Positions 7,301 through 60,604 of a DNA stretch of 64,000 nucleotides are shown here, in pieces (positions within the stretch are counted from its first letter, which is position 1; each line of letters starts with the position of its first letter). The notes under the pieces are model-generated. The model searched no databases, had not been told where the DNA came from, and was given only the letters and a program-made list of their open reading frames with translations. A program made the translations under genes and the position numbers. The DNA lies in assembly GCA_964524915.1 (NCBI GenBank), contig CAZGEB010000002.1, positions 5,094-69,093 on the forward strand, in the 5' to 3' direction. The stretch is from an uncultured Candidatus Saccharibacteria bacterium. GTDB lineage: Bacteria; Patescibacteriota; Doudnabacteria; UBA920.

Positions 7301-9685
7301 ATGTCAAAACCTTTAATAATAGTAGAGTCCCCCACCAAAGCCCGAACCATCACCAAGTTCCTCGGGAGTGAATATATAGTGGAGGCAAGTGTGGGCCATA
7401 TCAGGGACCTCCCTAAATCCAAGATTTCTATTGATGTTAAAAATGATTTTACCCCCACCTACGTCATTCCACCTGCCAAAGCAGAAATAGTAGAAAAACT
7501 GAAACACCTAGCAGCAAAAGCCTCAGAAATCATTCTAGCAACCGACGCCGACCGAGAAGGTGAGGCTATTTCTTGGCATCTGATCCAAGCCCTAGGCTTG
7601 GAAAATAAGAAAACAGAAAAAAGAAATCAGAAAAATCAATTGGAGGCTGCCTCTGCTTCCGAGCTCACGCCTCACGCCTCTCCGCCAGCCGGCGGACTCA
7701 CGCCTATCAAGAGAATTGTTTTTCACGAAATTACCAAATCAGCCATTGAAGAAGCCTTAAAACACCCAAGAGACTTAGATCAAAATCTGGTAGATGCCCA
7801 GCAAGCTCGCCGCGTACTAGATAGACTAGTAGGCTATGAGCTCTCACCTTTCCTCTGGAGAAAAGTACGCTACGGACTTTCTGCTGGCAGAGTCCAAAGT
7901 GTAGCTGTGAGGCTCGTCGTGGAAAGAGAAAGAGAAATTCAAAAATTTAAAACAGATGAATACTGGAGTATCAAAGCCCTAGCAGAAAACCAAGCAAAAT
8001 TCACTTTCGAAACCAGACTACACAAAGTAGCCGAAAAAAACCTGGGCAAATTAGATATTACAAATCAAGCTCAAGCAGAAAAGTATGTAGGAGAAATGCA
8101 AAAAGCTTCTTGGGTGGTTTCTAGCGTGCAGAAAAAAGAAGCCAAGCGCAACCCTTCAGCACCTTTTACCACCTCCACCCTCCAGCAAGAAGCAGCAAGA
8201 AAACTTGGATTTAGCGCCAAACAAACCATGGCAGTTGCCCAAGGTTTGTACGAGCAAGGTTTTATCACCTACATGCGTACCGATAGTTTGAACTTGTCAG
8301 ATTCAGCGATTAAACAAGCCAAAGAGATTATAACTGGACAATTTGGAAACCAGTATACACTAGAGACGCCAAGAATATTTACAAACAAATCCAAAGGCGC
8401 ACAAGAAGCTCACGAAGCCATTCGTCCCACAGACCTATCTAAACTTCCACAACATTTAAGTGGGGACCTGGACAGAAATCAATCCAGACTCTACGACCTT
8501 ATTTGGAAAAGAACCATCGCCTGTCAAATGCAACAAGCTTTGGTAGAACAAACTACAGTAGATATAGAAGGTAAATGTACCACAGAAAATAATCCTTACA
8601 CCTTGAGAGCCAACGGACAGATCATTAAATTTGATGGATTTATCAGAGTTTATACAGAAGGCAAAGACGCAGAAGATGACACAGAAGAAGACGGTGAAAA
8701 AACTTTGCCGGACTTAAAAGAAGGAGAGACTATCAGCGTCACCGACATTACTCCCGAGCAACACTTCACCGAACCACCTCCTAGATATACTGATGCCACA
8801 CTTATCAAAGCCCTAGAATCAGCTGGCATAGGCAGACCTTCTACCTACGCCCCCACCCTCACTACCATTCAAGAGAGAGAGTATGTAGACAAAGAAGACA
8901 AAAAATATAAACCAACTGAAGTTGGAATAATCGTTAATGATCTTTTGGTAGAACATTTTCCAGAAATTGTGGACATCAATTTCACCGCTAGGATAGAAGA
9001 AGAATTTGATGAAATCGCCGAAGGCAAAACTAAGTGGGTACCGGTAATTCGGGAATTTTACGAACCCTTTAAAAAACATTTGATAGAAAAAGAAGCTGCA
9101 GTAGAAAAGCAAGTAGAAGAATCAAATGTCCCCTGCAGCCACTGCGGCAAGATGATGATCATCAAATTTGGTAGAGCAGGCAGATTCCTCGCCTGCCCAG
9201 ATCCTGAAAGCAAAATTACTCAGCCACTACCAGAGGAAGCCGCCAAGATCAAAGAGCTAGAAGAAAAAACCAAAGACGAGAGATGCCCTATTTGCGACAA
9301 GCCTATGGAGGTCAAGCGTGGCAGGTTTGGATTTTTCCTTGGCTGCACTGACTACCCCAAGTGTAAAGGCATATCAAAAATTTGGAATAAGACTGGTTTC
9401 AAGTGTCCGAACTGTTTAGAAAATGCAGACAGAAAAAATAAACCGGGCGACATCGTAGAGAAAAAAGGGCGTGGTCGCGCCAAACCTTTTTGGGCATGCA
9501 CTAGGTGGCCTGATTGTGAATTTATTATAAACGTCCATCCAGAGTCAGAGACCCAGCTCAAAGAGCTGTTTGAAGCTTGGAAAAAAGCTCCCAAAAAAGA
9601 CAAGGATGAAAAGAAGTCTCGCTATACAAAAAAGCCTACCACCAAGAAAACTGCAGCCAAAACAAAAAAGGATTCGGGCAAGTAA
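7301..9685 (+). CDS. topA: DNA topoisomerase I with C-terminal Zn-ribbon repeats and a Lys-rich tail
   Basis: Toprim N-terminus LIIVESPTKARTI, active-site GFITYMRTDS, and three C4 zinc ribbons (CSHCGKMM..C, CPICDKPM..C, CPNC..C). Confidence 0.95.
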   Translation: MSKPLIIVESPTKARTITKFLGSEYIVEASVGHIRDLPKSKISIDVKNDFTPTYVIPPAKAEIVEKLKHLAAKASEIILATDADREGEAISWHLIQALGLENKKTEKRNQKNQLEAASASELTPHASPPAGGLTPIKRIVFHEITKSAIEEALKHPRDLDQNLVDAQQARRVLDRLVGYELSPFLWRKVRYGLSAGRVQSVAVRLVVEREREIQKFKTDEYWSIKALAENQAKFTFETRLHKVAEKNLGKLDITNQAQAEKYVGEMQKASWVVSSVQKKEAKRNPSAPFTTSTLQQEAARKLGFSAKQTMAVAQGLYEQGFITYMRTDSLNLSDSAIKQAKEIITGQFGNQYTLETPRIFTNKSKGAQEAHEAIRPTDLSKLPQHLSGDLDRNQSRLYDLIWKRTIACQMQQALVEQTTVDIEGKCTTENNPYTLRANGQIIKFDGFIRVYTEGKDAEDDTEEDGEKTLPDLKEGETISVTDITPEQHFTEPPPRYTDATLIKALESAGIGRPSTYAPTLTTIQEREYVDKEDKKYKPTEVGIIVNDLLVEHFPEIVDINFTARIEEEFDEIAEGKTKWVPVIREFYEPFKKHLIEKEAAVEKQVEESNVPCSHCGKMMIIKFGRAGRFLACPDPESKITQPLPEEAAKIKELEEKTKDERCPICDKPMEVKRGRFGFFLGCTDYPKCKGISKIWNKTGFKCPNCLENADRKNKPGDIVEKKGRGRAKPFWACTRWPDCEFIINVHPESETQLKELFEAWKKAPKKDKDEKKSRYTKKPTTKKTAAKTKKDSGK
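7661..7705. repeat. in-frame insertion: hairpin CTCCGCCAGCCGGCGGACTC flanked by TCACGCC direct repeats
   Basis: tcacgcc tcacgcc [tctccgccagccggcggac] tcacgcc. The 20-bp core is identical to 38424-38443 in the pnp leader. Encodes ELTPHASPPAGGLTPIK. Confidence 0.6.
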
Positions 9686-11447: not shown

Positions 11448-12377
11448 ATGCAAAATTTCGTACCCCAATCCACCGGCGATTTCGAGCTTTTAGATTCAGG
11501 CATGTCCATGCGCCTAGAGAAATGGGGGCAGTATACTTTGTCACGCCCAGACCCACAAGCCATTTGGCAACCTTCTCTTCCCAAAGAAGAATGGGAAAAA
11601 GCTGATGCGGTTTTTGACGATGGCTGGAAAATAAAAAATAAAATCCAGCAACCTTGGGTGTATAAGTACAACCTCTCTGCCCCAATCAAAGCATCGGGGC
11701 ATCTCCCCTCACAAGGAGAGAGTATAAGGTTGTTCGCAAGGCTCACGGCTTTTAAACACACTGGTATTTTTCCAGAGCAAGCCTACAACTGGCAATGGCT
11801 TTCCCACAAGCTAAAAGCTATAAGCTATAAGCTAAAAATCCTCAACCTCTTCGCTTACACAGGTGCTACCACTTGTCTACTAGCTAGCCTTGGCTGCCAG
11901 GTAACTCATGTTGATGCATCAAAACCCTCTATTGAGTGGGCGAAAAATAATGCGAAGCTGAATAATCTCCCAGAAGATAGTATCCGCTGGATTTTAGATG
12001 ATGCGGCCAAGTTTGTAAAAAGAGAAATTAGGCGTGGGGCCGAGTACGACGGCATCATCATGGACCCGCCTGCTTTTGGGCACTCCCCTAGTGGTAAAAC
12101 TTGGAAATTTTCAGAAAATTTACCAGAACTGCTTTCCGATTGCATAAAGCTCTTGAGCCCACATGCACAATTTTTGATAATCAATGCCTACGCCACCAAC
12201 ACTTCTAGCATTGCGCTACAAAATTTATTAGAAGACAGCTTGCCCCCTCCCCTTCTGAGGGGAGGGTTGGGGAGGGGTGGTATTGAATCAGGCGAACTTT
12301 TACTTGAGCAAAAAAATAAACGCCTGCTATCCACAGGCATTCTCGCTAGATGGTCAAAACACACTAATCACAACTAA
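11448..12377 (+). CDS. class I SAM-dependent methyltransferase (RlmI/RlmK-like rRNA methyltransferase fold)
   Basis: FAYTGATTCLLASLGCQVTHVDASK...DGIIMDPPAFG. Carries an in-frame heptamer repeat (11806-11835) and a GC-rich palindromic insertion (12241-12290). Confidence 0.7.
   Translation: MQNFVPQSTGDFELLDSGMSMRLEKWGQYTLSRPDPQAIWQPSLPKEEWEKADAVFDDGWKIKNKIQQPWVYKYNLSAPIKASGHLPSQGESIRLFARLTAFKHTGIFPEQAYNWQWLSHKLKAISYKLKILNLFAYTGATTCLLASLGCQVTHVDASKPSIEWAKNNAKLNNLPEDSIRWILDDAAKFVKREIRRGAEYDGIIMDPPAFGHSPSGKTWKFSENLPELLSDCIKLLSPHAQFLIINAYATNTSSIALQNLLEDSLPPPLLRGGLGRGGIESGELLLEQKNKRLLSTGILARWSKHTNHN
12241..12290. repeat. GC-rich palindromic element (ccccctcccc-ttctg-aggggaggg-tt-ggggagggg) in frame in methyltransferase CDS
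   Basis: Reverse orientation of the CCCTCCCCTCAGAAGGGGAGGGG core. Encodes PPPLLRGGLGRGG. Confidence 0.6.
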
Positions 12378-15532: not shown

Positions 15533-16264
15533 TTAAGTCAATGAAATATTATATTTTTGAAGAGCCTTTTGTAGTTCGTCCCAACGAATCGGCATATTGT
15601 GATTATCTTTCAAATCCAAAGCTATCGGATAAATCAACTTTGCTATTTCTACAGCCTTGTCTTTTTCCCCAATTTGCAAAAACACCAAAGCCAACCTAGC
15701 TAGGTTTCCACTATGAACAACCTTCTGATGCCAGCCCCGAAGTTCAGTTTTACCACTCGTCATCTCTACAGCTTTTTCTAAATTAGAAACCCCCTCTTCT
15801 ATTTTCCCATCAAAAGCTTGCGCCTTGCCTAATTGACTTAAATACTCCGCATACTCTCCAGGCTTTTCTTTTTCAATATCACCCAAGTTTTGGATGGCTT
15901 TTTCCATCTCCCCCAAAGCTTCTGGATATTTTTTATAATGAAAAAAGTAATCCCCTGCTCGCAAATGCATCACCGCCACTGCCTGGCCAGACAATTTTAA
16001 ATCTACTGCCAACTGAAGCCCTGCAGCTGTGACTCCATGCATCAAGTGTAGATAAAACTCCTGCCCAGTTTTTGTAAATTGATCTTTGAAAATCAGTAAC
16101 TGATGCCAGTAAGCATTCACTGCCAAAACACCATCTTTTTTCAAAGCAGCATCAAGTAAAGCTTTTTGACTCAAAAGTAAAGCCTGGTCAATATCCCCAG
16201 ACTCCCTCGCCTTTTCTAATGGCTCAAAATATTGTACGTAATCCATATAAAACAAGGATACCAA
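15533..16264 (-). CDS. hypothetical protein with TPR-like helical repeats
   Basis: 243 aa with repeated A..Y/L..A helical patterning. No catalytic motif seen. Confidence 0.45.
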   Translation of the reverse strand: MVSLFYMDYVQYFEPLEKARESGDIDQALLLSQKALLDAALKKDGVLAVNAYWHQLLIFKDQFTKTGQEFYLHLMHGVTAAGLQLAVDLKLSGQAVAVMHLRAGDYFFHYKKYPEALGEMEKAIQNLGDIEKEKPGEYAEYLSQLGKAQAFDGKIEEGVSNLEKAVEMTSGKTELRGWHQKVVHSGNLARLALVFLQIGEKDKAVEIAKLIYPIALDLKDNHNMPIRWDELQKALQKYNISLT

Positions 16265-16299
16265 AATATGATTTTCCTAGCAAATGCTATACTAAGCTC

Positions 16300-17166
16300 A
16301 TGGGCATATTTTATGCAATTTTAGCTATGCTTTCTTGGGGTGGTGGAGATTTTTTAATAGAAAGATCTAGCAGAAAATTTGGCGCGCCCTTGGCACTTTT
16401 TTATGTGACTGCAGTCGGAAGCCTCATAACACTACCTTTTATATACAAAGATTTATGGAGCATCCTGCAAAATCCACCCGCGAGCTTGATGGTGTTACTT
16501 CTAGCCTCTATCATCACCCTCTTCGCCTCCATAATAGACTTTGAGGCATTAAGAATTGGCAAGCTTTCAGTGGTAGAACCAGTTTACGCCACAGAAGTTT
16601 TTGTGACCATAGTTTTAAGTACTGTAATCATTCAAGAAATAATTTCTAAAGGACAAATCATCTTGGTCATTCTTTTAATGCTTGGGGTGGCCATGGTCTC
16701 ACTGAAATCCTTACGCCGCCTCAAAAAAGTTTTTCTAGAAAAAGGCGTGGGCCTAGCATTTCTTTCTGCTATCCTAATGGGCTTTACCAATTTCTTTGTA
16801 GGTTACAGTTCCAGACTCACCTCACCTCTACTTACTCATTGGTTCACCTGTACAATAATTGCTGTGGCAATGCTGATATATTTGTGGAAAAACAAAGCAT
16901 ACAAAAAGATATTAGGCTCAATAAAAAATAATGCCTTACTCATTACATCCGTTGGCATACTAGATACTCTAGCCTGGGTCAGTTTTTCTTATAGTGCCAT
17001 ACTAATACCCATAGCCATAGCCACCGCAATTTCGGAAAGCTATATAGCCATTGCCGCCATATTGGGACTCGCTCTAAACAAAGAAAAACTAAAAAAACAC
17101 CAAAAACTTGGTGTTTTCATAGCTATCATCTCCGCCATTTTCCTGGCTTATTTATCGGAAAAGTAA
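16300..17166 (+). CDS. DMT-superfamily (EamA-like) transporter
   Basis: About ten TM helices starting MGIFYAILAMLSWGGGDFL. Start moved to 16300 to avoid overlap with the upstream minus-strand gene. Confidence 0.65.
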   Translation: MGIFYAILAMLSWGGGDFLIERSSRKFGAPLALFYVTAVGSLITLPFIYKDLWSILQNPPASLMVLLLASIITLFASIIDFEALRIGKLSVVEPVYATEVFVTIVLSTVIIQEIISKGQIILVILLMLGVAMVSLKSLRRLKKVFLEKGVGLAFLSAILMGFTNFFVGYSSRLTSPLLTHWFTCTIIAVAMLIYLWKNKAYKKILGSIKNNALLITSVGILDTLAWVSFSYSAILIPIAIATAISESYIAIAAILGLALNKEKLKKHQKLGVFIAIISAIFLAYLSEK

Positions 17167-17215
17167 AAATCAAATTGGGGTTTTTTAAATGAAGCATCCA
17201 AGCAAAGTAAACACA

Positions 17216-17890
17216 TTATCGCTTTACCGCCTTTATTAACATAAAAGCTGGGTATTTGTCGTTGTTTACTCTTTCAGCATTTGAAGGATCATACTTTTCA
17301 TCATAATCAATCAAATCAAAGTGCGATAAAAAATATGGGCTGAAAAACTCTGAAAATGTATGGCTTGGTTCGTGAACCACAAGCTTGCCACCAAACAGAA
17401 CAGAATGCACTAACTCTTTTTTGAAAAAATCTTTCCCATTCTTTTTCTTTTCCATAAACTGACGGATTGGATGCACAACCACAAAACAAAACACGCCCCC
17501 TTTTTTCAACACACGAAAAACTTCCTTGTAAGTTGGGTCTAAAGTTTTGGAGGTTTGAAATACATATTTACTAGCTACATAATCGAAGAAATTATTCCTG
17601 AAGGGTACTTTTTCATTTTTTGCTACCACCAACTCTGACCCTGGCAATCTTTTCTTGGCAAGCTCTATCATTTCCCTTGACACATCAACGCCATATACTT
17701 TAGCACCAGCAGTTTGAAAATTTTTCAGATCAATAGCATCACCACAACCTAGATCCAATATTTTTTTACCTTTCATCCCTGAAAGCAGTCGCGGATAATA
17801 AGCAGCATTTGTTATCTTGTCCAATTTGGAATGCAACAAAGAAAACTTACCTGCAATTTTATCGTATTGTTTAAGCTCTTCTAATTTCAT
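17216..17890 (-). CDS. class I SAM-dependent methyltransferase
   Basis: Motif I ILDLGCGDAID; post-I VYGVDVS; FDYVAS. Confidence 0.75.
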   Translation of the reverse strand: MKLEELKQYDKIAGKFSLLHSKLDKITNAAYYPRLLSGMKGKKILDLGCGDAIDLKNFQTAGAKVYGVDVSREMIELAKKRLPGSELVVAKNEKVPFRNNFFDYVASKYVFQTSKTLDPTYKEVFRVLKKGGVFCFVVVHPIRQFMEKKKNGKDFFKKELVHSVLFGGKLVVHEPSHTFSEFFSPYFLSHFDLIDYDEKYDPSNAERVNNDKYPAFMLIKAVKR

Positions 17891-23643: not shown

Positions 23644-24177
23644 TTATTTCTTCTTCCCAATCCCTACCCCACTTGGTCTGACTACTTTGCCGCCGATCAT
23701 GTAGCCAGGCACATATTCCTCCACCACCACACCATCTTCCCCGCCCTCTATTTCTTTAATAGCTTCATGGAAATTTGGATCAAACTTTTTTCCCAAAGCT
23801 TCAACTCTTTGCACTCCCAACTCTTCCAGTGCCTTATCCAACTGCTTGATTAATCCTGCAATACCATTTTTCCAGTCACTGTATTTCTCCACAAATTCTT
23901 TATTCTTTATTCTTAATTCTTCATTCTCCTCTGGCATATGCCTGAGCGCTTGCCCTAAAGAATCCAAGGAAGGCAAAAGTTTTGCCACTGCCACTTCCCT
24001 TGCAAAGTCCACCAACTCTTTACTTTTCTTTTCTTGCCCTGCTTGAAAATTTAGTAGGTCCGCCTGCGCCCGCTTCCAACCATTTAGATTTGCTTCGGCT
24101 TCCGACTTGGCCTCATCCAGTTGTTGGATTAAAGTCTTTTCTTCTTGATCGTTAGTTGTGTAATTATCATCGCTCAT
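23644..24177 (-). CDS. grpE: nucleotide exchange factor GrpE
   Basis: GWKRAQADLLNFQ..and the C-terminal beta-domain GYMIGGKVVRP. Contains an in-frame (TTATTCT)4 repeat at 23891-23918. Confidence 0.9.
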   Translation of the reverse strand: MSDDNYTTNDQEEKTLIQQLDEAKSEAEANLNGWKRAQADLLNFQAGQEKKSKELVDFAREVAVAKLLPSLDSLGQALRHMPEENEELRIKNKEFVEKYSDWKNGIAGLIKQLDKALEELGVQRVEALGKKFDPNFHEAIKEIEGGEDGVVVEEYVPGYMIGGKVVRPSGVGIGKKK

Positions 24178-32316: not shown

Positions 32317-33741
32317 CTATATTTTCTCTCCTAAGTAAGCTGGTAAATCTTTTACAGAAATGCGAACCTGTTCTTGTGTGTCACGGTCGCGTACGGTTAC
32401 AGTATCATCCTCCAAAGTTTGGAAATCTACGGTAATGCAAAAAGGTGTACCAATTTCATCTTGTGAATAATACCTCTTGCCTACATTGCCACGGTCATCC
32501 CAAGCTATGGGTAGGAGTTGCGAGTTGCGAGTTGCGAGTTGCGAGTAAATACTGCGGGCTTTTTCTACCAGCTCGGGTTTGTTTTTTAGCAGTGGAAACA
32601 CTGCACATTTATAAGGAGCTAATTTTGGTGGTAGCGCAAGCCACACTCGTTTTACTTGCGCGTTGTCGTCTAGATCTTCTCTGTAAAACTCAAAAAGAGT
32701 AGATAAAAACAAACGGTTAAAACCCAAAGAAGACTCCACTATATATGGATTAAACCTCTCGCCTGTTGCCTCGTCAAAATAAGTCAAATCTTGACCGGAA
32801 AATTTGGAGTGTTGATCCAGGTCGTAGCTGCCACGATTGTGCAGCCCTTCTATTTCCTTAAATCCCATTTCGGAAAACTCGTACTCTATATCCCATGCAT
32901 CCCTAGCGTAAAAAGCTCTCTCATCCTCTTCGTGTTGACGCCACCTGACACGCTCTTTACTAAATCCCAGAAAATCCACATAAAAATTTTTACGATATTC
33001 TTTCCACTCTTCATAATGTTTGTCTGCGTCCACGGGCGCACAAAAATACTGCACGTCCATTTGTTCAAATTCCCGAGTTCTAAAAAGAAAATTCTTTACT
33101 GTAATTTCATTACGAAAAGCCTTGCCTATTTGGGCAATACCAAAAGGGAGTTTCCTACGAGTAGTATTTTGCACCGACCTCCAGTCCACATAAATATTTT
33201 GGCAACTTTCCCCCTTCAAATAAACAAGGTTACTTGCTTCTTCTGTAGGGCCTAAAAATGTCTTTACTAATAAATTAAACTTTTTGGCAGCGGATAATGC
33301 ATTACCATCTGGACTTTTCAGTCCTTTTGACTGGATGAGGTCACTAGCTTGTTCCGCGGTCAAGGACCCTGCATTTTCCATTAAACCTGCCTCTTCTATC
33401 AAATGATCTGCTCTGTATCTTTTGTGCGTCACCAGATCTTCTACAAGTAAATCAGCAAAACCACCTACGTGACCACTGGCCTCCCAAACTCTTGGGTGCA
33501 TAAAAATCGCACCCTCAATTTCCACCACATCTTCCCGCTTTTGCGTATTCCAATATCTCCAAGCATGTTCTAAATTTTTCTTGAGCAAAAACCCCAAAGG
33601 ACCAAAGTCGTAGGTAGCAGCAAAACCCCCATAAATTTCTGAAGAGGGAAATACAAACCCACGACGCTTACAGAGCGCCACTATTTTTTCCATCTTTCCC
33701 TCCGAAGCCTTGGCAGAGGATAGTAAATTTTCTTGTTGCAT
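32317..33741 (-). CDS. glyQS: glycine--tRNA ligase (dimeric GlyQS type)
   Basis: MEKIVALCKRRGFVFPSSEIYGGFAATYDFGPLG and class II motifs. Carries an in-frame (GAGTTGC)4 repeat at 32515-32545. Confidence 0.9.
   Translation of the reverse strand: MQQENLLSSAKASEGKMEKIVALCKRRGFVFPSSEIYGGFAATYDFGPLGFLLKKNLEHAWRYWNTQKREDVVEIEGAIFMHPRVWEASGHVGGFADLLVEDLVTHKRYRADHLIEEAGLMENAGSLTAEQASDLIQSKGLKSPDGNALSAAKKFNLLVKTFLGPTEEASNLVYLKGESCQNIYVDWRSVQNTTRRKLPFGIAQIGKAFRNEITVKNFLFRTREFEQMDVQYFCAPVDADKHYEEWKEYRKNFYVDFLGFSKERVRWRQHEEDERAFYARDAWDIEYEFSEMGFKEIEGLHNRGSYDLDQHSKFSGQDLTYFDEATGERFNPYIVESSLGFNRLFLSTLFEFYREDLDDNAQVKRVWLALPPKLAPYKCAVFPLLKNKPELVEKARSIYSQLATRNSQLLPIAWDDRGNVGKRYYSQDEIGTPFCITVDFQTLEDDTVTVRDRDTQEQVRISVKDLPAYLGEKI
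32515..32545. repeat. heptanucleotide tandem repeat (AGTTGCG/GAGTTGC)x4 in frame inside glyQS
   Basis: gagttgcgagttgcgagttgcgagttgcgag encodes SQLATRNSQL on the minus strand. Identical tract in tgt (34660-34691). Confidence 0.9.
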
Positions 33742-34384: not shown

Positions 34385-35556
34385 GACTTAATTTCCCTAA
34401 AATCTTCCACCATCTTATCAAAATAATCAAACTCTATTGCTAGCCTGATTTTGCCCATGAGGTTTAGATAAAATCTGAGGTTGTGCATGGTGGCAAGGCG
34501 TAAAGCTAAAGGCTCTCCTGTGGCAAAAAGATGCCTGAGATAAGCTCTGGTGTGATTTAAACAAGCATAGCAATTACAATTTGGATCAATGGGCGTAAAA
34601 TCCTCCGCATACTTCTGTACACGAATATCTATGGTCTCGTAGCCCTCCCCGATTTCTAGTTGCGAGTTGCGAGTTGCGAGTTGCGAGGAAATATATAGTC
34701 TGCCGTGACGCGCTTCTCTACTTGGAATCACACAGTCAAAAGTATCACACCCTCTAGCAACTGCTTGCACTATATCAAAGGGGGTACCCACACCAAGCAA
34801 ATGTTTTGGTGAATTTTCTGGTAAATGTGGGACAGCAGACTCTACCGCGATCATCATTTCATCGTGACCTTCCCCTACTGCCACTCCACCGATAGCAAAA
34901 CCCTCAAACCCCAAAGCCACCATGTCTTCAGCTGATTTCTTTCTTAAATCTGGGAAAGATGCGCCTTGTACAATCCCCCAAAGTTTTTGTCCGCGGTTTA
35001 CCGGGTCACCATCCAAAACTATTCTTTGATGCTCCTTTACAGCCCTCTCTGCCCATCTTTTTGTCAGCTCTATAGACTGTTTTGATCTTTCATACTCAAA
35101 AGGAAAGCCTGGAAAATCATCTAGAATCAAAGCCACATCTGATCCTAAATTTGCTTGAATCTGCACAGACTTTTCTGGAGACAACATTTCTTCTCTACCG
35201 TCTAGGTCAAATTGAAAAAACACTCCGGCTTCTGTCACTTTTCGCATTTTTGCCAAAGAAAAAACTTGAAAGCCGCCACTGTCAGTAAAAATCGGCCCTT
35301 GCCAATTCATAAACTGGTGGAGTCCTCCGGCTTTATAAACAAGTCCATCCCCAGGGCGTTGCCACAAATGATAGGTGTTGGCAAGGATCATTTCTGCCCC
35401 CCAAAATTTCAGCTCTTCACTCGTGACACTTTTTACTGTGCCGCGCGTGCCAATAGGCAAAAAGATCGGCGTATGAACCTGACCGTGATGCGTATTTATA
35501 ATTCCAAGCCTTGCTTTTGACTTAGAATCTTTTTTTAAAATTTCAAAATATGGCAT
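34381..35556 (-). CDS. tgt: queuine tRNA-ribosyltransferase
   Basis: LPIGTRGTVKSV..., zinc site CNCYACLNH. Carries an in-frame (AGTTGCG)4 repeat at 34660-34691. Confidence 0.9.
   Translation of the reverse strand: MPYFEILKKDSKSKARLGIINTHHGQVHTPIFLPIGTRGTVKSVTSEELKFWGAEMILANTYHLWQRPGDGLVYKAGGLHQFMNWQGPIFTDSGGFQVFSLAKMRKVTEAGVFFQFDLDGREEMLSPEKSVQIQANLGSDVALILDDFPGFPFEYERSKQSIELTKRWAERAVKEHQRIVLDGDPVNRGQKLWGIVQGASFPDLRKKSAEDMVALGFEGFAIGGVAVGEGHDEMMIAVESAVPHLPENSPKHLLGVGTPFDIVQAVARGCDTFDCVIPSREARHGRLYISSQLATRNSQLEIGEGYETIDIRVQKYAEDFTPIDPNCNCYACLNHTRAYLRHLFATGEPLALRLATMHNLRFYLNLMGKIRLAIEFDYFDKMVEDFREIKS
34660..34691. repeat. heptanucleotide tandem repeat (AGTTGCG)x4 in frame inside tgt
   Basis: agttgcgagttgcgagttgcgagttgcgag encodes SQLATRNSQL, the same peptide as in glyQS. 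Confidence 0.9.
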
Positions 35557-39538: not shown

Positions 39539-40522
39539 ATGAATTCCAAGAATCAAATAGAGCAATATATCCAAGATTTCCTAGAATATTGCGAAATTGA
39601 GAAAAATCGCAGCCCCAAAACTTTGGTGGCTTATGCTCATTATTTAAAAAGATTTGCTGATTTCACCAAAAGCAAAAACATCTCATCTCCGGACAAAATA
39701 GACCTAGAAGCCGTCAGGCAATTTCGCCTACATTTAAACAGGCTCAGTGACGACAAAGGCAAAAACCTCAAACTGATCAGTCAATCTTATCACATCATAG
39801 CTCTTCGGGCTTTCTTGAAATATTTATCCAAACGAGATGTGACCACCCTTGCCGCAGAAAAAATCGAACTGCCAAAAAATCCCTCACGCGAAGTCACCGC
39901 TCTTTCAGACGATGAGCTCCACAGAATTTTAGCCGCAGTAAACGACAACGAAGACCAAATGCAGCAACTCCGAGACCGCGCCATCCTACTCACCCTCTTC
40001 TCTTCTGGGGTGCGTATTTCTGAATTGGTTTCCCTCACCCAAAAAATGGTAAGCCTAGACAGGGGCGAATTTACTGTCCGTGGAAAAGGCGATAAACTCC
40101 GACTAGTTTTTTTGTCTACAGAAGCTACCGCTGCTATAAAAAATTATTTAAGCAAAAGAAAAGACAACCACCCTGCCCTTTTTATAGCTCACGGTAAATC
40201 TAAAAATGAATTAGAAAGAGAAATCTCCGCCCAATCCTCTGATCTATCAGGTATAAGGTATAAGGTATCAGCTACCGGCCTCACCGCAAGGTCAATCCAG
40301 AGACTCATCCACAAATACGCCATGCTTGCTGGAGTTTACAAAAAAGTCACCCCCCACACCCTCCGACACTCTTTTGCAACCGATCTTTTACGTAATGGCG
40401 CAGATATTCGCTCTGTACAAACCATGCTTGGCCACGCCTCAATCACCACTACGCAAATCTACACTCATGTAACCAATGAATCTTTGCGTGAAGTACACAA
40501 AAAATTTCACGGAAAAAATTAG
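39539..40522 (+). CDS. tyrosine recombinase XerC/XerD family
   Basis: R..HTLRHSFATDLL..GHASITTTQIYTHV (catalytic RHRY). Contains an in-frame (GGTATAA)n repeat at 40251-40270. Confidence 0.85.
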   Translation: MNSKNQIEQYIQDFLEYCEIEKNRSPKTLVAYAHYLKRFADFTKSKNISSPDKIDLEAVRQFRLHLNRLSDDKGKNLKLISQSYHIIALRAFLKYLSKRDVTTLAAEKIELPKNPSREVTALSDDELHRILAAVNDNEDQMQQLRDRAILLTLFSSGVRISELVSLTQKMVSLDRGEFTVRGKGDKLRLVFLSTEATAAIKNYLSKRKDNHPALFIAHGKSKNELEREISAQSSDLSGIRYKVSATGLTARSIQRLIHKYAMLAGVYKKVTPHTLRHSFATDLLRNGADIRSVQTMLGHASITTTQIYTHVTNESLREVHKKFHGKN

Positions 40523-41270: not shown

Positions 41271-41429
41271 AAATAAAATAGCACTGAGTAATGAGAAGTG
41301 AGCAGTGAGATTGCAGCCCAAGACTCATTCCTCAAGTCTCACTTCTCACGGCTTTTTATAAATTTGCCACACACCCCACTTTTCTAGTATACTATAAAAA
41401 GAATTTTTAAATAAATTCATAAATACTCT

Positions 41430-45875: not shown

Positions 45876-45876
45876 T

Positions 45877-46260
45877 ATGCAAACCCAAACAGACGACCTC
45901 AAGGACACACTGGATCCACTAACTTTCCACGTCACCCAAGAAAAAGGCACAGAAGCACCTTTTACTGGTAAATACGTAAACGAACACGCAAGTGGCATTT
46001 ACAAATGTGTCGTTTGTGGACAAGAACTTTTCTCGTCTGAAGCAAAATTTGACTCCGGCACTGGCTGGCCATCTTTTGACGAGCCAATGAATCTAGAACA
46101 CGTGAATTTAATAACAGATGATTCCCACGGTATGCACCGCACAGAAGTTGAATGCAAAAAATGCGGAGCTCATTTAGGACACGTTTTTGACGACGGCCCC
46201 ACAAAAACAGGGCAAAGATTCTGCATCAATTCCTGTGCACTCAACCTAGAAAAGAAATAA
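45877..46260 (+). CDS. msrB: peptide-methionine (R)-S-oxide reductase
   Basis: CVVCGQELF..GWPSF..RTEVECKKCGAHLGHVFDDGP. Confidence 0.9.
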   Translation: MQTQTDDLKDTLDPLTFHVTQEKGTEAPFTGKYVNEHASGIYKCVVCGQELFSSEAKFDSGTGWPSFDEPMNLEHVNLITDDSHGMHRTEVECKKCGAHLGHVFDDGPTKTGQRFCINSCALNLEKK

Positions 46261-46270
46261 CAAAAAACAA

Positions 46271-46306
46271 AAGGATCCCCTATATTTTATAAGGGATCCT
46301 TTTAAA
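46271..46306 (+). terminator. intrinsic terminator after msrB
   Basis: aaggatccc-ctatattttataa-gggatcctt followed by ttaaaat. Confidence 0.65.
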
Positions 46307-46331
46307 ATCCAAAATTTGCTATACTAGGCTC

Positions 46332-47684
46332 ATGAGAAAATACTTTATTTATTTATTTGGGCTAATAAATTTAAGTCTTATCTTTTATTTCTGGGCGGCA
46401 AACTCCTGGCATCTTTTAAGCCAAGACCGTGCCAGTATAAATCTGGCCATAGGCAGGCTTTCCGGTTTACTGCTGGTTTCTTGTATCTTACTGCAATTTC
46501 TCATCATGAGTCGTGCCCCTGCCTTAGAGCAAACTTTCGGGCTAGACAAGCTCTCCCGTCTACACCATTTCATTGGCAAATACCTGGTCATAATATTTTT
46601 ATTTTGCCATGTACTACTTATAACGATCGCCTATGCAAGCTTTAGCGAGCGCGGGTTTTTCTCTCAATACCTAGGTTTTCTGAAATTTGAGGACCTACCA
46701 AATGCCATGATTGCTCAATGGCTGTTTATTTTTGTGATTATTTATTCCATTTTTATGGTGCTCAAAAAATGGAATTTTGAAAAATGGTACTACGCACACC
46801 TCTCAGTTTATATAGCCATCATCCTCGCCTTCGGTCATCAACTAGAACTCGGTGGTGACTTTGCGGAAAGTAAAATCTTCACCTGGTACTGGTACCTACT
46901 CTATGCCTTTGTTGCCCTAATGCTGGCAATATACCGCTTTGGAAAACCCTTATGGCTGTTTTATAAACATCGCTTTTATATAGAAAAGATAATAGCCGAG
47001 ACTCCAGATGTAACTTCTGTATATATTTCTGGCAAACAAATGGATAAATTCAAATTCCATCCCGGACAATTTGTCATAGTGAGATTTTTGGATAAACAAA
47101 GGCGCTGGCAAGCCCACCCTTTTTCTCTGTCGCAACCTTTTAACGGACAGAATATCCGTCTCTCTATAAAAGCCTCTGGCGACTTCACCTCTCAAGCCTC
47201 ACTCCTCACTCCTCACTCCTCACTCCTAATTGAGGGCCCCTATGGTGTCTTTACTCCTAATAAATTGAAAAATAATAAAGCACTGCTCATCGCGGGCGGT
47301 ATTGGCATTACCCCTATCCGCGGAATAATGGAGGCTTTAGGCGAGAATAAAAAAGAAGCCATACTACTCTACGCCAACAAAACAGAAAAAGATATTGCCC
47401 TGCGTGAAGAAATAGAAAAACTTGGAGAAAAATACCACTTCCCAATTCACCACATACTAAACAACCAGCCCAAGTCTCCCAATCTCAAGTCTCAAGTCTC
47501 AAGCCTCATCACTATACACGATGGTATGATAAATCAAAATCTCATACAGTCTGAGGTAGATGATATCACGCACTGGGAGGTATTCCTTTGTGGTCCCCCA
47601 CCCATGATGACCGCTATCACAAAAGTTTTAATCGCCTTGGGTGTCCCCAAACAAAGTATTTACTTTGAAAGATTTAGTTTGTAA
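46332..47684 (+). CDS. NOX-like ferric-reductase-domain flavocytochrome (TM heme domain + FAD + NAD(P)H-binding domains)
   Basis: Six TM helices with paired His, HPFSLS (FAD), GGIGITP (NAD). Carries two in-frame heptamer tandem repeats. Confidence 0.7.
   Translation: MRKYFIYLFGLINLSLIFYFWAANSWHLLSQDRASINLAIGRLSGLLLVSCILLQFLIMSRAPALEQTFGLDKLSRLHHFIGKYLVIIFLFCHVLLITIAYASFSERGFFSQYLGFLKFEDLPNAMIAQWLFIFVIIYSIFMVLKKWNFEKWYYAHLSVYIAIILAFGHQLELGGDFAESKIFTWYWYLLYAFVALMLAIYRFGKPLWLFYKHRFYIEKIIAETPDVTSVYISGKQMDKFKFHPGQFVIVRFLDKQRRWQAHPFSLSQPFNGQNIRLSIKASGDFTSQASLLTPHSSLLIEGPYGVFTPNKLKNNKALLIAGGIGITPIRGIMEALGENKKEAILLYANKTEKDIALREEIEKLGEKYHFPIHHILNNQPKSPNLKSQVSSLITIHDGMINQNLIQSEVDDITHWEVFLCGPPPMMTAITKVLIALGVPKQSIYFERFSL
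47191..47225. repeat. heptanucleotide tandem repeat (CACTCCT)x4-5 in frame inside the NOX-like gene
   Basis: Encodes SLLTPHSSLL between the FAD and NAD subdomains. Confidence 0.85.
47471..47500. repeat. heptanucleotide tandem repeat (CAAGTCT)x3 in frame inside the NOX-like gene
   Basis: ctcaagtctcaagtctcaagcctc encodes NLKSQVSSL. Confidence 0.8.
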
Positions 47685-47687
47685 GAA

Positions 47688-48383: not shown

Positions 48384-48406
48384 TTCGCCTTAAATAAGCG
48401 GAGCAT

Positions 48407-48435
48407 TTGACTATTTCTATAAAAAGTGATATAAT
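48407..48435 (+). promoter_or_regulatory. consensus sigma-70 promoter TTGACT-17-TATAAT
   Basis: ttgact atttctataaaaagtga tataat; near-perfect hexamers with a 17-bp spacer. Confidence 0.55.
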
Positions 48436-48467
48436 ACGTTATTGTTGAATAATTAATATTCACCTGA

Positions 48468-48503: not shown

Positions 48504-48540
48504 ACAATTTTGAGTCTCTATGTTGTGTTATTATTAGATT

Positions 48541-59278: not shown

Positions 59279-60604
59279 ATGACCAAACTTAAACCCTCCA
59301 AAAAAACCATTTATTTAGACCACGCGGCTACTACCCCAATCCGCGAAGAAGTCTTGCGCGTGATGAAGCCATATTTTGCAGAAAAATTTGGTAACCCTTC
59401 TAGTCTTTACAAGCTGGGAGTAGAAGCAAAGAATGCAATAGAGGATGCTAGAAAATCTATTGCGGAGAATCTAAACGCCAGAGCAGAAGAAATCATTTTT
59501 ACCGCTGGAGGTAGTGAGAGTGTAAATTTGGGAATACTTGGAGTTGCCAAGAATCACAAAGCAAAACAACCTCTCTCTATCTCTCCCCTCACAAGGCGAG
59601 AAAACCGGAAAAGAACGCACGGACACATCATCACTTCCAAAATAGAGCATCATGCTGTATTAAATACATTAGAACAACTGGAAAAAGAGGGCTTTGCCGT
59701 GACACAAATCAGTGTGGACAATGAAGGTTTTTTTGATATTGAAGAATTTAAAAAAGCTATCCGCCCAGATACTTTTCTGGTAAGTCTCATGTACGCCAAT
59801 AATGAAATAGGCACCATAGAGCCTATCCGTGAAATTTCAAAAATAATCAAACAGGAAAATCTACACCGCTTCCAACTAAAAACTAAAAACTCTCAACTAA
59901 AAACCCCCATCCTCCTCCACACCGACGCCTGCCAAGCAGCTGGCTTTTTGGATCTAAATGTGCAAAGACTTGGCGTGGACCTAATGAGCATCAATGCCAG
60001 TAAAATCTACGGCCCCAAACAAATTGGTTGCTTGTATGCAAAAAAAGGGATCGCCCTCTCCCCTATTATTTTTGGGGGCGGGCAAGAAAGAAATCTCAGG
60101 AGCGGTACAGAGAATGTTGCAGGCATAGTTGGTTTTGCTAAAGCTTTGGAATTGGCGGCTTTGGAAAGAGATAAAGAGGTACAGAGACTAGAGAAATTAA
60201 GGGATTATTTATTTAAAGAAATAATTAAAATAAATAAAAACTCTGTTTTAAATGGTCCGAGTATCGCAAATACAACCTCTCCCCTAACCCCTCTCCTCAG
60301 AAGGCGAGGGGAAACAGGTCGCCGCCTACCAAATAATTTAAATATTACATTTCCAAATGCTGAAGGTGAAGCGCTCATGCTTTACTTGGATGCTTACAAT
60401 ATCGCAGTTTCCACAGGGAGCGCCTGCACGGCCTACGAAACTGACCCTTCTCATGTACTGAAAGCTGTTGGGTTAAGCGATGAGGATGCCAAATCTAGCC
60501 TGCGCATCACATTGGGAAAATCTACCAACAAAAAAGATTTAGAGTACTTTATAAAAGCCCTCAAAGAAACTCTCGAAATAGTTTCAAAAAATACAGTTGC
60601 GTAA
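59279..60604 (+). CDS. iscS: cysteine desulfurase (IscS/NifS family) carrying two in-frame repeat insertions
   Basis: LDHAATTP, PLP-Lys SINASKIYGPKQIG, active Cys STGSACTA. Insertions at 59571-59610 (SISPLTRRENRKRT) and 60271-60320 (TSPLTPLLRRRGETGRRL). Confidence 0.9.
   Translation: MTKLKPSKKTIYLDHAATTPIREEVLRVMKPYFAEKFGNPSSLYKLGVEAKNAIEDARKSIAENLNARAEEIIFTAGGSESVNLGILGVAKNHKAKQPLSISPLTRRENRKRTHGHIITSKIEHHAVLNTLEQLEKEGFAVTQISVDNEGFFDIEEFKKAIRPDTFLVSLMYANNEIGTIEPIREISKIIKQENLHRFQLKTKNSQLKTPILLHTDACQAAGFLDLNVQRLGVDLMSINASKIYGPKQIGCLYAKKGIALSPIIFGGGQERNLRSGTENVAGIVGFAKALELAALERDKEVQRLEKLRDYLFKEIIKINKNSVLNGPSIANTTSPLTPLLRRRGETGRRLPNNLNITFPNAEGEALMLYLDAYNIAVSTGSACTAYETDPSHVLKAVGLSDEDAKSSLRITLGKSTNKKDLEYFIKALKETLEIVSKNTVA
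59571..59610. repeat. degenerate GC-rich palindromic element (CTCTCCCC-TCACAA-GGCGAG) in frame in iscS
   Basis: Related to CCCTCCCCTCAGAAGGGGAGGG. Confidence 0.5.
60271..60320. repeat. GC-rich palindromic element (CTCTCCCCT-AA-CCCCTCTCC-TCAGAA-GGCGAGGGG) in frame in iscS
   Basis: Same TCAGAAGG loop as the 28981 copy. Confidence 0.6.

What the first reader, a model, noticed from the sequence alone, without database searches (positions are those of the whole stretch)
47191..47500. Two different in-frame heptamer repeats inside the NOX-like flavocytochrome gene
(CACTCCT)4-5 at 47191-47225 encodes SLLTPHSSLL, and (CAAGTCT)3 at 47471-47500 encodes NLKSQVSSL. The second lies beside HPIHHIL in the dehydrogenase domain. 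The gene is a ferric-reductase/NOX-type electron transfer protein placed directly after msrB. This adds to a genome-wide pattern of 7-nt tandem repeats in coding DNA.
Basis: seen in the sequence. Interest (0 to 1): 0.55.

Follow-up and report, generated by a model that had tools for sequence, protein, structure and literature searches.

The report
Seven-base repeats written into protein loops
Two short runs of a repeated 7-base unit really do sit in frame inside a bacterial NADPH-oxidase-like gene, and they belong to a wider pattern in this group of tiny uncultured bacteria, where such 7-base repeats build and keep rewriting surface loops of otherwise conserved, even essential, proteins.

Summary
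Both repeats are real. (CCTCACT)x4.4 is perfect at 47197-47227. (CAAGTCT)x~5 lies at 47471-47508, with 3 perfect copies. They sit in frame in a 450-aa SpNOX-like flavocytochrome gene, 71 nt after msrB, in a Patescibacteria (Doudnabacteria-like) genome.

Period 7 is the only enriched long period in the window: 10 tracts against 0 in shuffles, and none at periods 8-12. Seven of the ten are in genes, including GlyRS, TGT and GrpE.

Tract 2 lies in a low-confidence loop of the NAD(P)H domain. That loop has grown from 9 to about 20 residues in this subfamily. Orthologues carry different heptamers at the same spot.

Tract 1 is not an insertion. It overwrites about 13 codons before EGPYG with no length change. 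A sister strain (94-100% identical flanks) has a different heptamer there, in the same register.

Loops of 55 TGT and 19 NOX orthologues show a 7-residue periodicity (0/1000 shuffles), the protein footprint of 7-nt arrays.

Copy number is identical in three independent records, and the tracts are short and far from the 5' end. Phase variation is therefore unlikely.

Best reading: 7-nt-step slippage or template switching, filtered by frame and structure. This is a new variant of a known repeat class.

The parts
46332..47684 (+). SpNOX-like flavocytochrome gene (6-TM ferric-reductase domain + FAD domain + NAD(P)H domain), 450 aa; host of both repeats
   Evidence: ORF. Pfam PF01794, PF08022 and PF00175. 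Best full-length PDB sequence hits are SpNOX 8qt6/8qq7. Foldseek top hits are SpNOX, TM 0.74-0.78. All family-invariant residues are kept.
47190..47231 (+). Heptamer array 1: six 7-nt units in register (TCTCAAG, CCTCACT x4, CCTAATT); perfect part 47197-47227. Encodes SQASLLTPHSSLLI, a helix-turn-strand just before EGPYG at the end of the FAD domain. Length-neutral.
   Evidence: No gap against homologues. AF2 model: helix 286-291, strand 297-304, pLDDT 79-91. Sister strain L001 has CTTACAA units here: 16/42 nt identical, no indel, flanks 94-97%.
47471..47513 (+). Heptamer array 2: CAAGTCT-type units (perfect 47483-47503). Encodes PKSPNLKSQVSSLI, part of a lineage-specific expanded loop in the NAD(P)H-binding domain after strand FPIHHIL.
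   Evidence: pLDDT 51 for residues 381-390, below 50 at 382-385. Loop is 9 aa in 46/80 distant homologues and 15-46 aa in the close subfamily. Different heptamers at the same place in L085, L086 and L087.
   Evidence: Pfam SelR, E 1.4e-50. The MsrB-NOX neighbourhood is conserved in relatives.
32509..32551 (-). Same phenomenon: (GCAACTC)x4.6 in glycyl-tRNA synthetase, encodes SQLATRNSQL in the anticodon-binding domain
   Evidence: Replaces 9 codons by 13 relative to L090 GlyRS. Private to this organism among 120 homologues.
34651..34691 (-). Same phenomenon: identical (GCAACTC)x4.3 array, same frame and same peptide SQLATRNSQL, in tRNA-guanine transglycosylase; a 13+2 aa insertion in a hairpin loop
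   Evidence: The loop is hypervariable (0-82 aa) in relatives. L090 carries a CAAGTAG array at the same place.
2617..2650 (+). Same phenomenon: CAAGCTA array in the linker between the two GTPase domains of EngA/Der
7608..7680 (+). Same phenomenon: AGAAAAC and CTCACGC arrays between the Toprim and core domains of topoisomerase I
11803..11839 (+). Same phenomenon: AAGCTA[AT] array in a SAM-dependent methyltransferase gene (11448..12377)
23892..23930 (-). Same phenomenon: ATTCTTT array (coding strand AAAGAAT) in grpE
40240..40279 (+). Same phenomenon: TATAAGG array in a XerC/D-type tyrosine recombinase gene. The array stops one codon before its own TAA triplet would come into frame.
59874..59904 (+). 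Same phenomenon: AACTAAA array in a class-V aminotransferase gene
41286..41358 (.). Intergenic / 5'-end inverted pair of heptamer arrays (TGAGnnn facing CTCAnnn) followed by a T-run. Its units are close to both NOX-gene units.

Best explanation
The two tracts are genuine heptanucleotide microsatellites embedded in frame in an SpNOX-like flavocytochrome gene of a Patescibacteria (Doudnabacteria-like) bacterium. They are local instances of a clade-wide process.

Inferred mechanism. Tandem arrays with a 7-nt step arise and turn over in DNA by slipped-strand or template-switch copying. In coding DNA only three kinds of outcome survive: those that keep the reading frame, those with no in-frame stop triplets, and those in positions the fold tolerates.

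A useful property follows from 7 and 3 being coprime. Three units equal seven codons, so an array encodes the same cyclic 7-residue peptide in every frame.

Shown:
- Array 2 is part of a low-confidence surface loop of the NAD(P)H domain. That loop has grown from 9 to about 20 residues in this subfamily, and in other species it is made of different heptamers.
- Array 1 replaced about 13 codons (helix-turn-strand before EGPYG) with no length change.
- A sister strain with 94-100% identical flanks carries another heptamer in the same register.

Inferred:
- The arrays are homogenised in situ by repeated out-of-register copying.
- They are neutral or nearly so for the enzyme.
- They are not an on/off switch.
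For: 1. Period 7 is uniquely enriched: 9 against 0.04; 10 against 0, with periods 8-12 at 0.
2. Seven of the 10 strong tracts are in genes, including GlyRS, TGT and GrpE; weaker tracts lie in topoisomerase I and EngA. They sit mid-gene, in linkers or loops.
3. An unbiased scan of seven NOX orthologue genes finds period-7 windows only at the two sites. The units differ: CTCAAGT, GACTACT, CCTACAA, CACTnnG.
4. Protein footprint. Same-residue matches at offset 7 are 117 against 53 expected in 55 non-redundant TGT loops, and 48 against 24.5 in 19 NOX loops, 0/1000 shuffles each. Offsets 5, 6, 8 and 9 are not significant. The GlyRS site serves as a negative control.
5. Array 1 against L001: 16/42 nt identical with no indel, against 94-100% in the flanks. 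The units stay in register and share YYT at positions 1-3.
6. AF2 model: array 2 at pLDDT 51; array 1 in a structured but non-invariant segment.
7. Density of perfect period-7 tracts per 10 kb: window 1.9, close relatives 0.93, other CPR loci 0.54, non-CPR loci 0.21.
8. Literature. An excess of heptameric SSRs in bacteria, and the polymerase-footprint slippage idea, are already described (PMC4692102, PMC4679880).
Against: - No read-level data, so the slippage rate is unknown.
- Only 64 kb of this genome, plus fragments of relatives, were examined.
- Simple +/-1-unit slippage would pass through frameshifted intermediates. That is implausible for GlyRS, so a length-neutral or compound copying step must be assumed, and it is not demonstrated.
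- The identical 31-nt array in GlyRS and TGT points to copying between loci rather than purely local slippage.
- Array 1 lies in a structured element and may not be neutral.
- Two other records of this gene are disrupted in the membrane domain: a nonsense codon in L002 and a 1-nt deletion in L001. The gene itself might therefore be under relaxed selection, although those contigs are low coverage.
Confidence: 0.6

Rival explanations
1. Ectopic copy-and-paste. Ready-made heptamer arrays are copied from one locus into another by microhomology-mediated template switching, or by an unknown micro-mobile mechanism. Under this view such copying, not local slippage, is the main way arrays enter genes.
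For: - GlyRS and TGT are unrelated proteins 2.1 kb apart on the same strand. They carry the same (GCAACTC)x4.3-4.6 array in the same frame, giving SQLATRNSQL.
- DNA identity extends one further unit to the left (TATTT[AC]C). That unit consists of ancestral codons in both genes, so it is a microhomology.
- Both arrays are private to this organism.
- Units recur elsewhere: TATAAGG at 20159 and 40245; CTCAnnn units at 7664, 41327-41350, 47197 and 47471.
Against: - Most arrays have unique units.
- Array 1 evolved in register from a weakly periodic ancestor-like sequence (L003), which looks like in-situ homogenisation.
- There are no terminal repeats, target duplications or carried sequence.
- The GlyRS/TGT pair is one case only.
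Confidence: 0.15
2. Phase-variable contingency switch. Gain or loss of one 7-nt unit frameshifts the NOX-like gene, turning it off and on, as in E. coli K1 neuO.
For: - A 7-nt unit shifts the frame unless the change is a multiple of 3 units.
- neuO is a proven in-frame heptanucleotide switch (PMC13001214).
- Length-neutral unit turnover at array 1 could result from alternating +1/-1 events.
- Two other records of the gene are disrupted, though not at the arrays.
Against: - The arrays are short (3-4.4 perfect copies, against 3-53 in neuO).
- They lie at residues 289 and 380 of 450, not near the 5' end.
- Copy number is identical in three independent records, and array 2 is identical in the 88% relative.
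- The same kind of array sits in essential genes such as GlyRS, GrpE and topoisomerase I, where switching off would be lethal.
- No frameshifted allele at an array was seen.
Confidence: 0.07
3. Selected function of the repeat itself. Either the 7-residue periodic peptide has a role in the protein (for example a regulatory or interaction loop), or the DNA/RNA heptamer array is a binding site, like the TAACTGA arrays proposed as post-transcriptional regulator sites.
For: - The expanded loop in the NAD(P)H domain is retained across the whole subfamily.
- A C-terminal T-F-x-T motif in the loop is shared.
- Intergenic arrays also exist, one as an inverted pair with a T-run.
- Heptamer arrays with proposed regulatory roles are known (PMC4679880).
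Against: - Unit sequences differ between orthologues, and even between sister strains.
- The encoded peptides differ and are predicted disordered.
- There is no common motif across arrays beyond composition.
- No Rfam family matches.
- The inverted arrays fold no better than shuffles (z = -1.5).
Confidence: 0.1
4. Chance, or an assembly or sequencing artefact.
For: Metagenome assemblies can collapse or invent repeats. The tracts are short.
Against: - 0 of 50 and 0 of 20 shuffles reach the observed counts.
- The arrays are shorter than reads.
- Identical arrays appear in three independent records from NCBI, ENA and JGI.
- The ORF stays intact through both arrays.
Confidence: 0.02

Closest known systems
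Over-representation of heptanucleotide simple sequence repeats in prokaryotic genomes (Mrazek, Guo and Shah 2007, as summarised in PMC4692102 and PMC4679880)
   Same: Tandem arrays with a 7-nt unit, many different unit sequences, an excess specific to period 7, and a proposed origin by polymerase slippage tied to a ~7-nt polymerase footprint. My non-CPR control loci also show a small period-7 excess: 9 tracts against 0 at period 8.
   Different: That work reported that units which are multiples of three are the ones found in coding regions. Here 7 of 10 strong arrays are inside genes, including essential ones. Density is about 9-fold that of the control loci. Orthologous loops hold different heptamers.
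Single-unit heptamer array families: cyanobacterial STRR, Beggiatoaceae/cyanobacterial TAACTGA, Xanthomonas GGGAATC, Nostoc GGGGA(T/C)T
   Same: Short tandem heptamer arrays dispersed through a genome. Length and sequence vary between close relatives (PMC4692102).
   Different: Those have one dominant unit per genome. They are overwhelmingly intergenic and often sit just upstream of start codons, with proposed regulatory or G-quadruplex roles. Here there are many units, mostly coding, with no common motif.
neuO of E. coli K1 (CUS-3 prophage): in-frame heptanucleotide repeat (AAGACTC)n
   Same: A 7-nt unit read in frame inside a coding sequence. It is translated as a 7-residue periodic peptide, and the frame is kept only for certain copy numbers (PMC13001214).
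   Different: In neuO the array is in the 5' region, has 3-53 copies, varies between and within strains, and works as a phase switch. Here there are 3-4.4 copies, mid or late in the gene, invariant in three records, and also present in essential genes.
Tandem repeats of Borg elements that create intrinsically disordered regions in proteins (PMC9879509)
   Same: Rapidly evolving tandem nucleotide repeats that arise independently within ORFs and add low-complexity, disordered segments to proteins.
   Different: This comparison rests on the title and abstract listed, and the paper was not read. The point that Borg in-gene repeat units are multiples of 3 nt is my recollection, not checked here. 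Borgs are archaeal extrachromosomal elements. Here the unit is 7 nt, the arrays are chromosomal, and they sit in core housekeeping genes of a CPR bacterium.
Rickettsia palindromic elements inserted in frame in protein-coding genes (from my own knowledge; not checked with a tool here)
   Same: Repetitive DNA tolerated in frame inside conserved, even essential, genes at structurally permissive surface positions.
   Different: RPEs are ~100-150-bp palindromic mobile elements, not tandem heptamers. A closer analogue to RPEs is the 87-nt GC-rich palindromic insert seen in the TGT loop of relative L089.

Membership tests
Heptanucleotide simple sequence repeat (long-unit SSR) | Head-to-tail copies of a 7-nt unit, at least about 3 copies | tested here: met
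   4.4 perfect copies at 47197-47227; 3.0 perfect (5.3 at 80%) at 47471-47508
Heptanucleotide simple sequence repeat (long-unit SSR) | More frequent than composition predicts, specifically at period 7 | tested here: met
   9 against 0.04 and 10 against 0 in shuffles; periods 8-12 none
Heptanucleotide simple sequence repeat (long-unit SSR) | Copy number polymorphic between close strains (slippage in action) | tested here: not met
   Three records are identical. L001 has the same length at both sites but a different unit at array 1. The sample is very small and there are no reads.
Phase-variable contingency locus (neuO-type coding SSR switch) | Repeat located in the promoter or 5' part of the coding sequence, so that a frameshift abolishes the protein | tested here: not met
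   Arrays at residues 289-299 and 380-393 of 450
Phase-variable contingency locus (neuO-type coding SSR switch) | Long tract with ON and OFF length alleles among isolates | tested here: not met
   3-4.4 perfect copies; no length variant in 4 records; neuO has 3-53 copies
Phase-variable contingency locus (neuO-type coding SSR switch) | Within-population length heterogeneity at read level | not testable with these tools
   No access to raw reads
NOX / ferric-reductase-domain flavocytochrome (SpNOX-like) | Ferric_reduct transmembrane domain fused to FAD- and NAD(P)H-binding domains | tested here: met
   PF01794 (45-166), PF08022 (230-306), PF00175 (319-430). AF2 model with 6 long helices plus an FNR-like module.
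NOX / ferric-reductase-domain flavocytochrome (SpNOX-like) | Two histidine pairs for bis-haem ligation; HPFS FAD motif; GGIGITP and CGP nucleotide motifs; C-terminal aromatic residue | tested here: met
   H78 and H93 are nearly invariant; H156 and H169 are invariant. H262-P-F-S265, G322-G-I-G-I-T-P328, C420-G-P422 and F448 are all conserved in alignment A1. The H78-H93 spacing is one residue longer than in relatives; H79 restores the usual spacing.
NOX / ferric-reductase-domain flavocytochrome (SpNOX-like) | Overall fold similar to solved NOX structures | tested here: met
   Foldseek top hits are SpNOX 8qt6/8qta/8qq7, TM 0.74-0.78, E about 1e-17. phmmer hit to 8qt6, E 3.7e-14, over residues 44-448.
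NOX / ferric-reductase-domain flavocytochrome (SpNOX-like) | NAD(P)H-dependent electron transfer to O2 or Fe(III) | not testable with these tools
   Needs biochemistry
Borg-type coding tandem repeats that create disordered regions | Repeat unit length divisible by 3 when inside a gene (as I recall from PMC9879509; the paper was not read here) | tested here: not met
   Unit is 7 nt
Borg-type coding tandem repeats that create disordered regions | Repeat encodes a disordered, low-complexity segment added to a conserved protein | tested here: inconclusive
   Met for array 2 (pLDDT 51, loop expansion). Not met for array 1 (structured, length-neutral).

The most novel reading that the evidence does not exclude
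In this Patescibacteria lineage a specific, ongoing templated mutational process with a 7-nt step rewrites coding DNA. It differs from ordinary microsatellite slippage.

- It homogenises existing codons into heptamer arrays without changing length (array 1).
- It builds and keeps replacing surface loops of conserved and essential proteins (NOX loop, TGT hairpin).
- It can copy a finished array between genes through microhomology (GlyRS to or from TGT).

If so, it would be a lineage-specific engine of protein loop innovation. Its cause would probably lie in the clade's reduced replication and repair machinery.
Probability: 0.3. Interest if true: 0.75.

Novelty: new variant of a known kind. Interest (0 to 1): 0.6.

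Why it matters
Repeats whose unit is not a multiple of three are expected to be purged from genes, because each slip breaks the reading frame. Here they sit in core genes at roughly the density expected from the coding fraction: 7 of 10 strong tracts in 89% coding sequence.

The same protein loops carry different 7-base repeats in different species. A 7-residue periodicity in dozens of orthologous loops shows that the process has shaped proteins across a whole clade.

If confirmed genome-wide, three things would follow:
- a concrete, testable source for the many unexplained insertions in proteins of candidate-phyla-radiation bacteria;
- a natural system for asking why bacterial replication favours a 7-base step;
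- a simple sequence signature (offset-7 residue identity) for finding repeat-born loops in any protein family.

For the NOX-like enzyme itself, it marks which two segments are evolutionarily plastic and can probably be engineered or trimmed.

Tried and rejected
It returned only distant homologues (best 41%, Peregrinibacteria), useful only as control DNA.
- The metagenome-contig scan with the NOX protein found one irrelevant 23% hit.
- The Mrazek 2007 paper is not held by DOI or by the guessed PMC id. One malformed literature query failed. Its content is cited second-hand from PMC4692102 and PMC4679880.
- No paper was found on in-frame heptamer arrays in CPR/Patescibacteria.
- Antisense gene idea. 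The reverse strand of array 1 reads (AGGAGTG)n, which is Shine-Dalgarno-like, 6 nt before a TTG that opens an 81-aa antisense ORF (46950..47195). I rejected it because the array, and therefore the SD, is replaced in sister strain L001, and the ORF lies antisense to a conserved domain.
- RNA or hairpin role. There is no Rfam hit other than tRNAs. The inverted heptamer arrays at 41286-41356 fold no better than shuffles (z = -1.47).
- Common register of array 2 across species, as a test of a single ancestral insertion against independent insertions. Units match 2-4 of 7 positions in the 3'-anchored register, which is inconclusive (my reading of the sequences).
- DNA of the one GlyRS relative with a similar loop (P0269) could not be fetched. 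The exact look-up of P0241 failed.
- Pseudogene idea for the window copy. The ORF is intact and keeps every family-invariant residue, so I did not adopt it. Disruptions in L001 and L002 are noted but come from low-coverage contigs.
Full report
OBSERVATION. The two repeats exist as described. It also reports a period-7 array of 5.3 copies at 80% match at 47471-47508 (CAAGTCT). An exact scan gives 31 perfect bases for the first and 21 (3.0 copies, 47483-47503) for the second. Both lie inside ORF 46332..47684 (+), 450 aa, and are read through in frame as ASLLTPHSSLL (residues 289-299) and PKSPNLKSQVSSLI (380-393). The adjacent motif is FPIHHIL, not HPIHHIL.

THE GENE. Pfam finds Ferric_reduct (45-166), FAD_binding_8 (230-306) and NAD_binding_1 (319-430). 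The gene upstream (45877..46260) is msrB/SelR. The best full-length solved relatives are the Streptococcus pneumoniae NADPH oxidase SpNOX (8qt6/8qq7). An AlphaFold model (mean pLDDT 86.5) matches SpNOX best (TM 0.74-0.78). All residues invariant in a 25-sequence alignment are present: the haem histidines H156 and H169, HPFS, GGIGITP, CGP and F448. H78 and H93 are nearly invariant and are also present. The window copy therefore looks functional. The closest homologues, and the named TGT and GlyRS hits, are Patescibacteria, notably Candidatus Doudnabacteria.

CHANCE AND ARTEFACT. Perfect period-7 tracts of at least 2.5 copies number 9 in the window against 0.04 in dinucleotide shuffles. Periods 8-15 give none. 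With a looser definition (at least 4 units at 80% match), period 7 gives 10 tracts against 0 in shuffles. Period 6 gives 1 and periods 8-12 give 0. The same two arrays are present, base for base, in an independent ENA contig (L002) and in a JGI protein fragment (P0361). They are therefore not an assembly artefact.

POSITION IN THE PROTEIN: ARRAY 1. In the protein alignment, array 1 is not an insertion. The stretch between GDFT and EGPYG has the same length in all homologues and in SpNOX. In the model it forms a short helix (286-291), a turn, and the last strand of the FAD-domain barrel (297-304), with pLDDT 79-91. None of its columns is invariant.

POSITION IN THE PROTEIN: ARRAY 2. Array 2 lies in the loop between strand 372-376 (PIHHI) and strand 393-397. 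This is the least confident part of the model (pLDDT 51 for 381-390, below 50 at 382-385). The loop is 9 residues long in 46 of 80 more distant Patescibacteria homologues and 15-46 residues long in the close subfamily.

WHAT RELATIVES SHOW AT THE DNA LEVEL. I fetched DNA for six relatives. The neighbourhood FAD-linked oxidase, MsrB, NOX-like and beta-CASP nuclease is conserved. A scan of every NOX gene for periodicity finds period-7 windows only at the two sites.
- Site 2. The window and L001 have CTCAAGT units, L085 has GACTACT (and CAGyAGT), L086 has CCTACAA, and L087 has CACTnnG. L003 and L088 show none.
- Site 1. The sister strain L001 has (CTTACAA)x~4 where the window has (CCTCACT)x4.4.
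- Segment identities between the window and L001 are 100%, 94% and 95% before site 1; 38% (16/42, no indel) in array 1; 97% after it; and 98% in array 2.
- Written in 7-nt register, the window, L001 and the 60% relative L003 all show YYT at unit positions 1-3. L001 and L003 share the last two units. The middle units are homogenised to different sequences in the window and in L001.

This is what in-situ homogenisation of a pre-existing, weakly periodic stretch would look like. It is not what an insertion would look like.

THE WIDER PATTERN IN THE WINDOW. Seven of the ten strong period-7 tracts are inside genes, in a window that is 89% coding. With the weaker tracts added, the hosts include:
- EngA (inter-domain linker);
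- topoisomerase I (between Toprim and the core domain);
- a SAM methyltransferase;
- GrpE;
- glycyl-tRNA synthetase;
- tRNA-guanine transglycosylase;
- a XerC/D recombinase;
- a class-V aminotransferase.

In TGT the array is a 13+2-residue insertion in a hairpin, relative to the best-matching solved TGT (PDB 10fa). In GlyRS it replaces 9 codons by 13.

GlyRS and TGT are unrelated proteins, 2.1 kb apart. They carry the same (GCAACTC)x4.3-4.6 array in the same frame, encoding SQLATRNSQL. The identity extends one unit to the left (TATTT[AC]C). That unit is made of ancestral codons in both genes. This suggests copying between loci through microhomology.

CLADE-WIDE FOOTPRINT. Three 7-nt units equal seven codons, so a heptamer array leaves a 7-residue periodicity in the protein.
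- The TGT hairpin loop is hypervariable in 120 relatives of 73-93% identity (0-82 residues).
- DNA of a Doudnabacteria relative (L090) shows a CAAGTAG array there. A 93%-identical relative (L089) instead has an 87-nt GC-rich palindromic insert.
- In 55 non-redundant TGT loops, same-residue matches at offset 7 are 117 against 53 expected. In 19 non-redundant NOX loops they are 48 against 24.5. Both are exceeded in 0 of 1000 within-loop shuffles. Offsets 5, 6, 8 and 9 are not significant.
- The GlyRS site is a conserved helix in most relatives and shows no such signal. It serves as a negative control.
- Perfect period-7 tracts per 10 kb are 1.9 in the window, 0.93 in close relatives, 0.54 in other CPR loci and 0.21 in 68 non-CPR loci. 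Period 8 is zero in all three sets of loci and in the window.

MECHANISM. Several things are shown. The arrays are real, in frame, stop-free on the coding strand, and located in linkers, loops or non-invariant segments. Units differ between orthologues and between sister strains while length and register are kept. A 7-residue footprint is present across the clade.

The rest is inferred. The arrays arise and turn over by slipped-strand or template-switch copying with a 7-nt step, which is the long-noted bacterial bias towards heptameric repeats attributed to the polymerase footprint (PMC4692102, PMC4679880). Selection then removes every outcome that shifts the frame, brings a stop triplet into frame, or disturbs the fold.

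The XerC/D array ends one codon before its TAA would be read, which fits this filter. Single-unit slips would inactivate essential genes. Length-neutral or compound copying events must therefore be assumed, and they are not demonstrated. I put this explanation at 0.6.

RIVALS.
- Phase variation (0.07). This is disfavoured by the short tracts, the late position in the gene, identical copy numbers in three records and in L001 at array 2, and the presence of the same kind of array in essential genes. Compare neuO, with 3-53 copies at the 5' end.
- A selected peptide or nucleic-acid motif (0.1). This is disfavoured by the different units in orthologues, the predicted disorder, the absence of any Rfam match, and unremarkable folding.
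- Ectopic copy-and-paste as the main origin (0.15). This is supported only by the GlyRS/TGT pair and some recurring units.
- Chance or artefact is excluded for practical purposes.

NOVELTY AND SCORE. The excess of heptameric repeats in bacteria is known, and one in-frame heptanucleotide array (neuO) is a textbook switch. I could not find three things described: heptamer arrays at near-average density inside core genes of a CPR lineage; different heptamers occupying the same loop in orthologues; and length-neutral replacement between sister strains. I rate it a new variant of a known kind, with interest 0.6.

The specific NOX finding is modest by itself. Its value is as an entry point to a clade-wide process that can be tested at once by read mapping and a genome survey.

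CAVEATS.
- Only 64 kb of this genome and short contigs of relatives were available.
- ORFs are mechanical calls under translation table 11, supported by full-length Pfam matches.
- Homologous loops are phylogenetically related. I reduced redundancy but did not model the tree.
- No reads were accessible.
- The L001 and L002 disruptions of the membrane domain (a 1-nt deletion in an A-run and a CAA-to-TAA change) come from low-coverage contigs and may be errors.

Noticed in passing
window 41286-41358: An inverted pair of heptamer arrays (TGAGTAA/TGAGAAG/TGAGCAG/TGAGATT facing CTCATTC/CTCAAGT/CTCACTT/CTCAC) followed by TTTTT. It sits at the 5' end of the VTT-domain ORF and 70 nt upstream of tRNA-Arg. 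Its units are within 2 mismatches of both NOX-gene units. Folding is not better than shuffles (z = -1.47).
   Followed up: partly
window 12243-12278, 28550-28618, 28988-29025 (and scattered): A second repeat family: GC-rich CCCCCTCCCC ... GGGGAGGG(TT)GGGGAGGGGT palindromic elements at gene boundaries of a 40% GC genome. GGGGAGGGGT with up to 1 mismatch occurs 17 times against 2.6 expected (0/100 shuffles).
   Followed up: partly
L089, about 2825-2915 (TGT gene 1955-3172): A relative whose TGT gene is 93% identical in DNA has an 87-nt GC-rich insert in frame in the same hairpin loop, where the window has the heptamer array. The insert contains two palindromes (GGAATCCAG..CTGGATCC and GGCTCTCTGACGC..GCGTCAGAGCC). 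Similar peptides (SPRLRRTAPDS..., ISPQEERGLQ...) recur in other TGT relatives. This suggests a small palindromic element that also inserts in frame.
   Followed up: partly
L002 about 81-83 and L001 about 262 (equivalents of window ~46715 and ~46763): In two other records the NOX-like gene is disrupted in its membrane domain: CAA to TAA in the ENA contig, and loss of one A from an A6 run in the Logan contig. This could be sequencing error at low coverage (L002 coverage 2.1) or relaxed selection on the gene.
   Followed up: no
window 47514-47684 against L001: Mosaic divergence. The 3' end of the gene is only 72-80% identical to the sister strain, while the 5' 880 nt are 94-100% identical. In this stretch the sister strain looks more like the family consensus (LVPExxxYEV) than the window does (EVDDITHWEV). 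This suggests recombination between diverged alleles.
   Followed up: no
window 46268-46304: A 17-bp near-perfect palindrome (CAAAAGGATCCCCTATATTTTATAAGGGATCCTTTTA) with flanking T/A runs fills the 71-nt gap between msrB and the NOX-like gene. It is terminator-like on the minus strand.
   Followed up: no
window 44235-49953; L085, L086, L087, L088: The order FAD-linked oxidase, MsrB, (VTT-domain protein or pilin-like protein), NOX-like flavocytochrome, (methyltransferase or Germane-domain protein), beta-CASP nuclease is conserved across relatives at 50-54% NOX identity. A functional link between the NOX-like protein and methionine sulfoxide repair is conceivable (compare MsrQ, my own knowledge), but I did not test it.
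   Followed up: no
window 46563-46610 (residues 78-93): The window protein and L001 have one residue more than all other aligned homologues between the two conserved histidines of the third transmembrane helix (H78...H93, 15 apart instead of 14). The adjacent H79 would restore the usual spacing.
   Followed up: no
window 6339-6352 and 6582-6595: Two 2-mismatch matches to GCAACTCGCAACTC (TCAACTCGCAATTC and GCAACTCGCAAATT) lie in gene 5638..6903, against 0.28 matches expected in the whole window. They may be decayed copies of the array seen in GlyRS and TGT.
   Followed up: no
L090 16585-16613: The Doudnabacteria relative has an (AAGTCGG)x4.1 perfect array inside a class-I aminoacyl-tRNA synthetase gene (15845..17368). 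Heptamer arrays in essential genes are therefore not peculiar to the window's organism.
   Followed up: no
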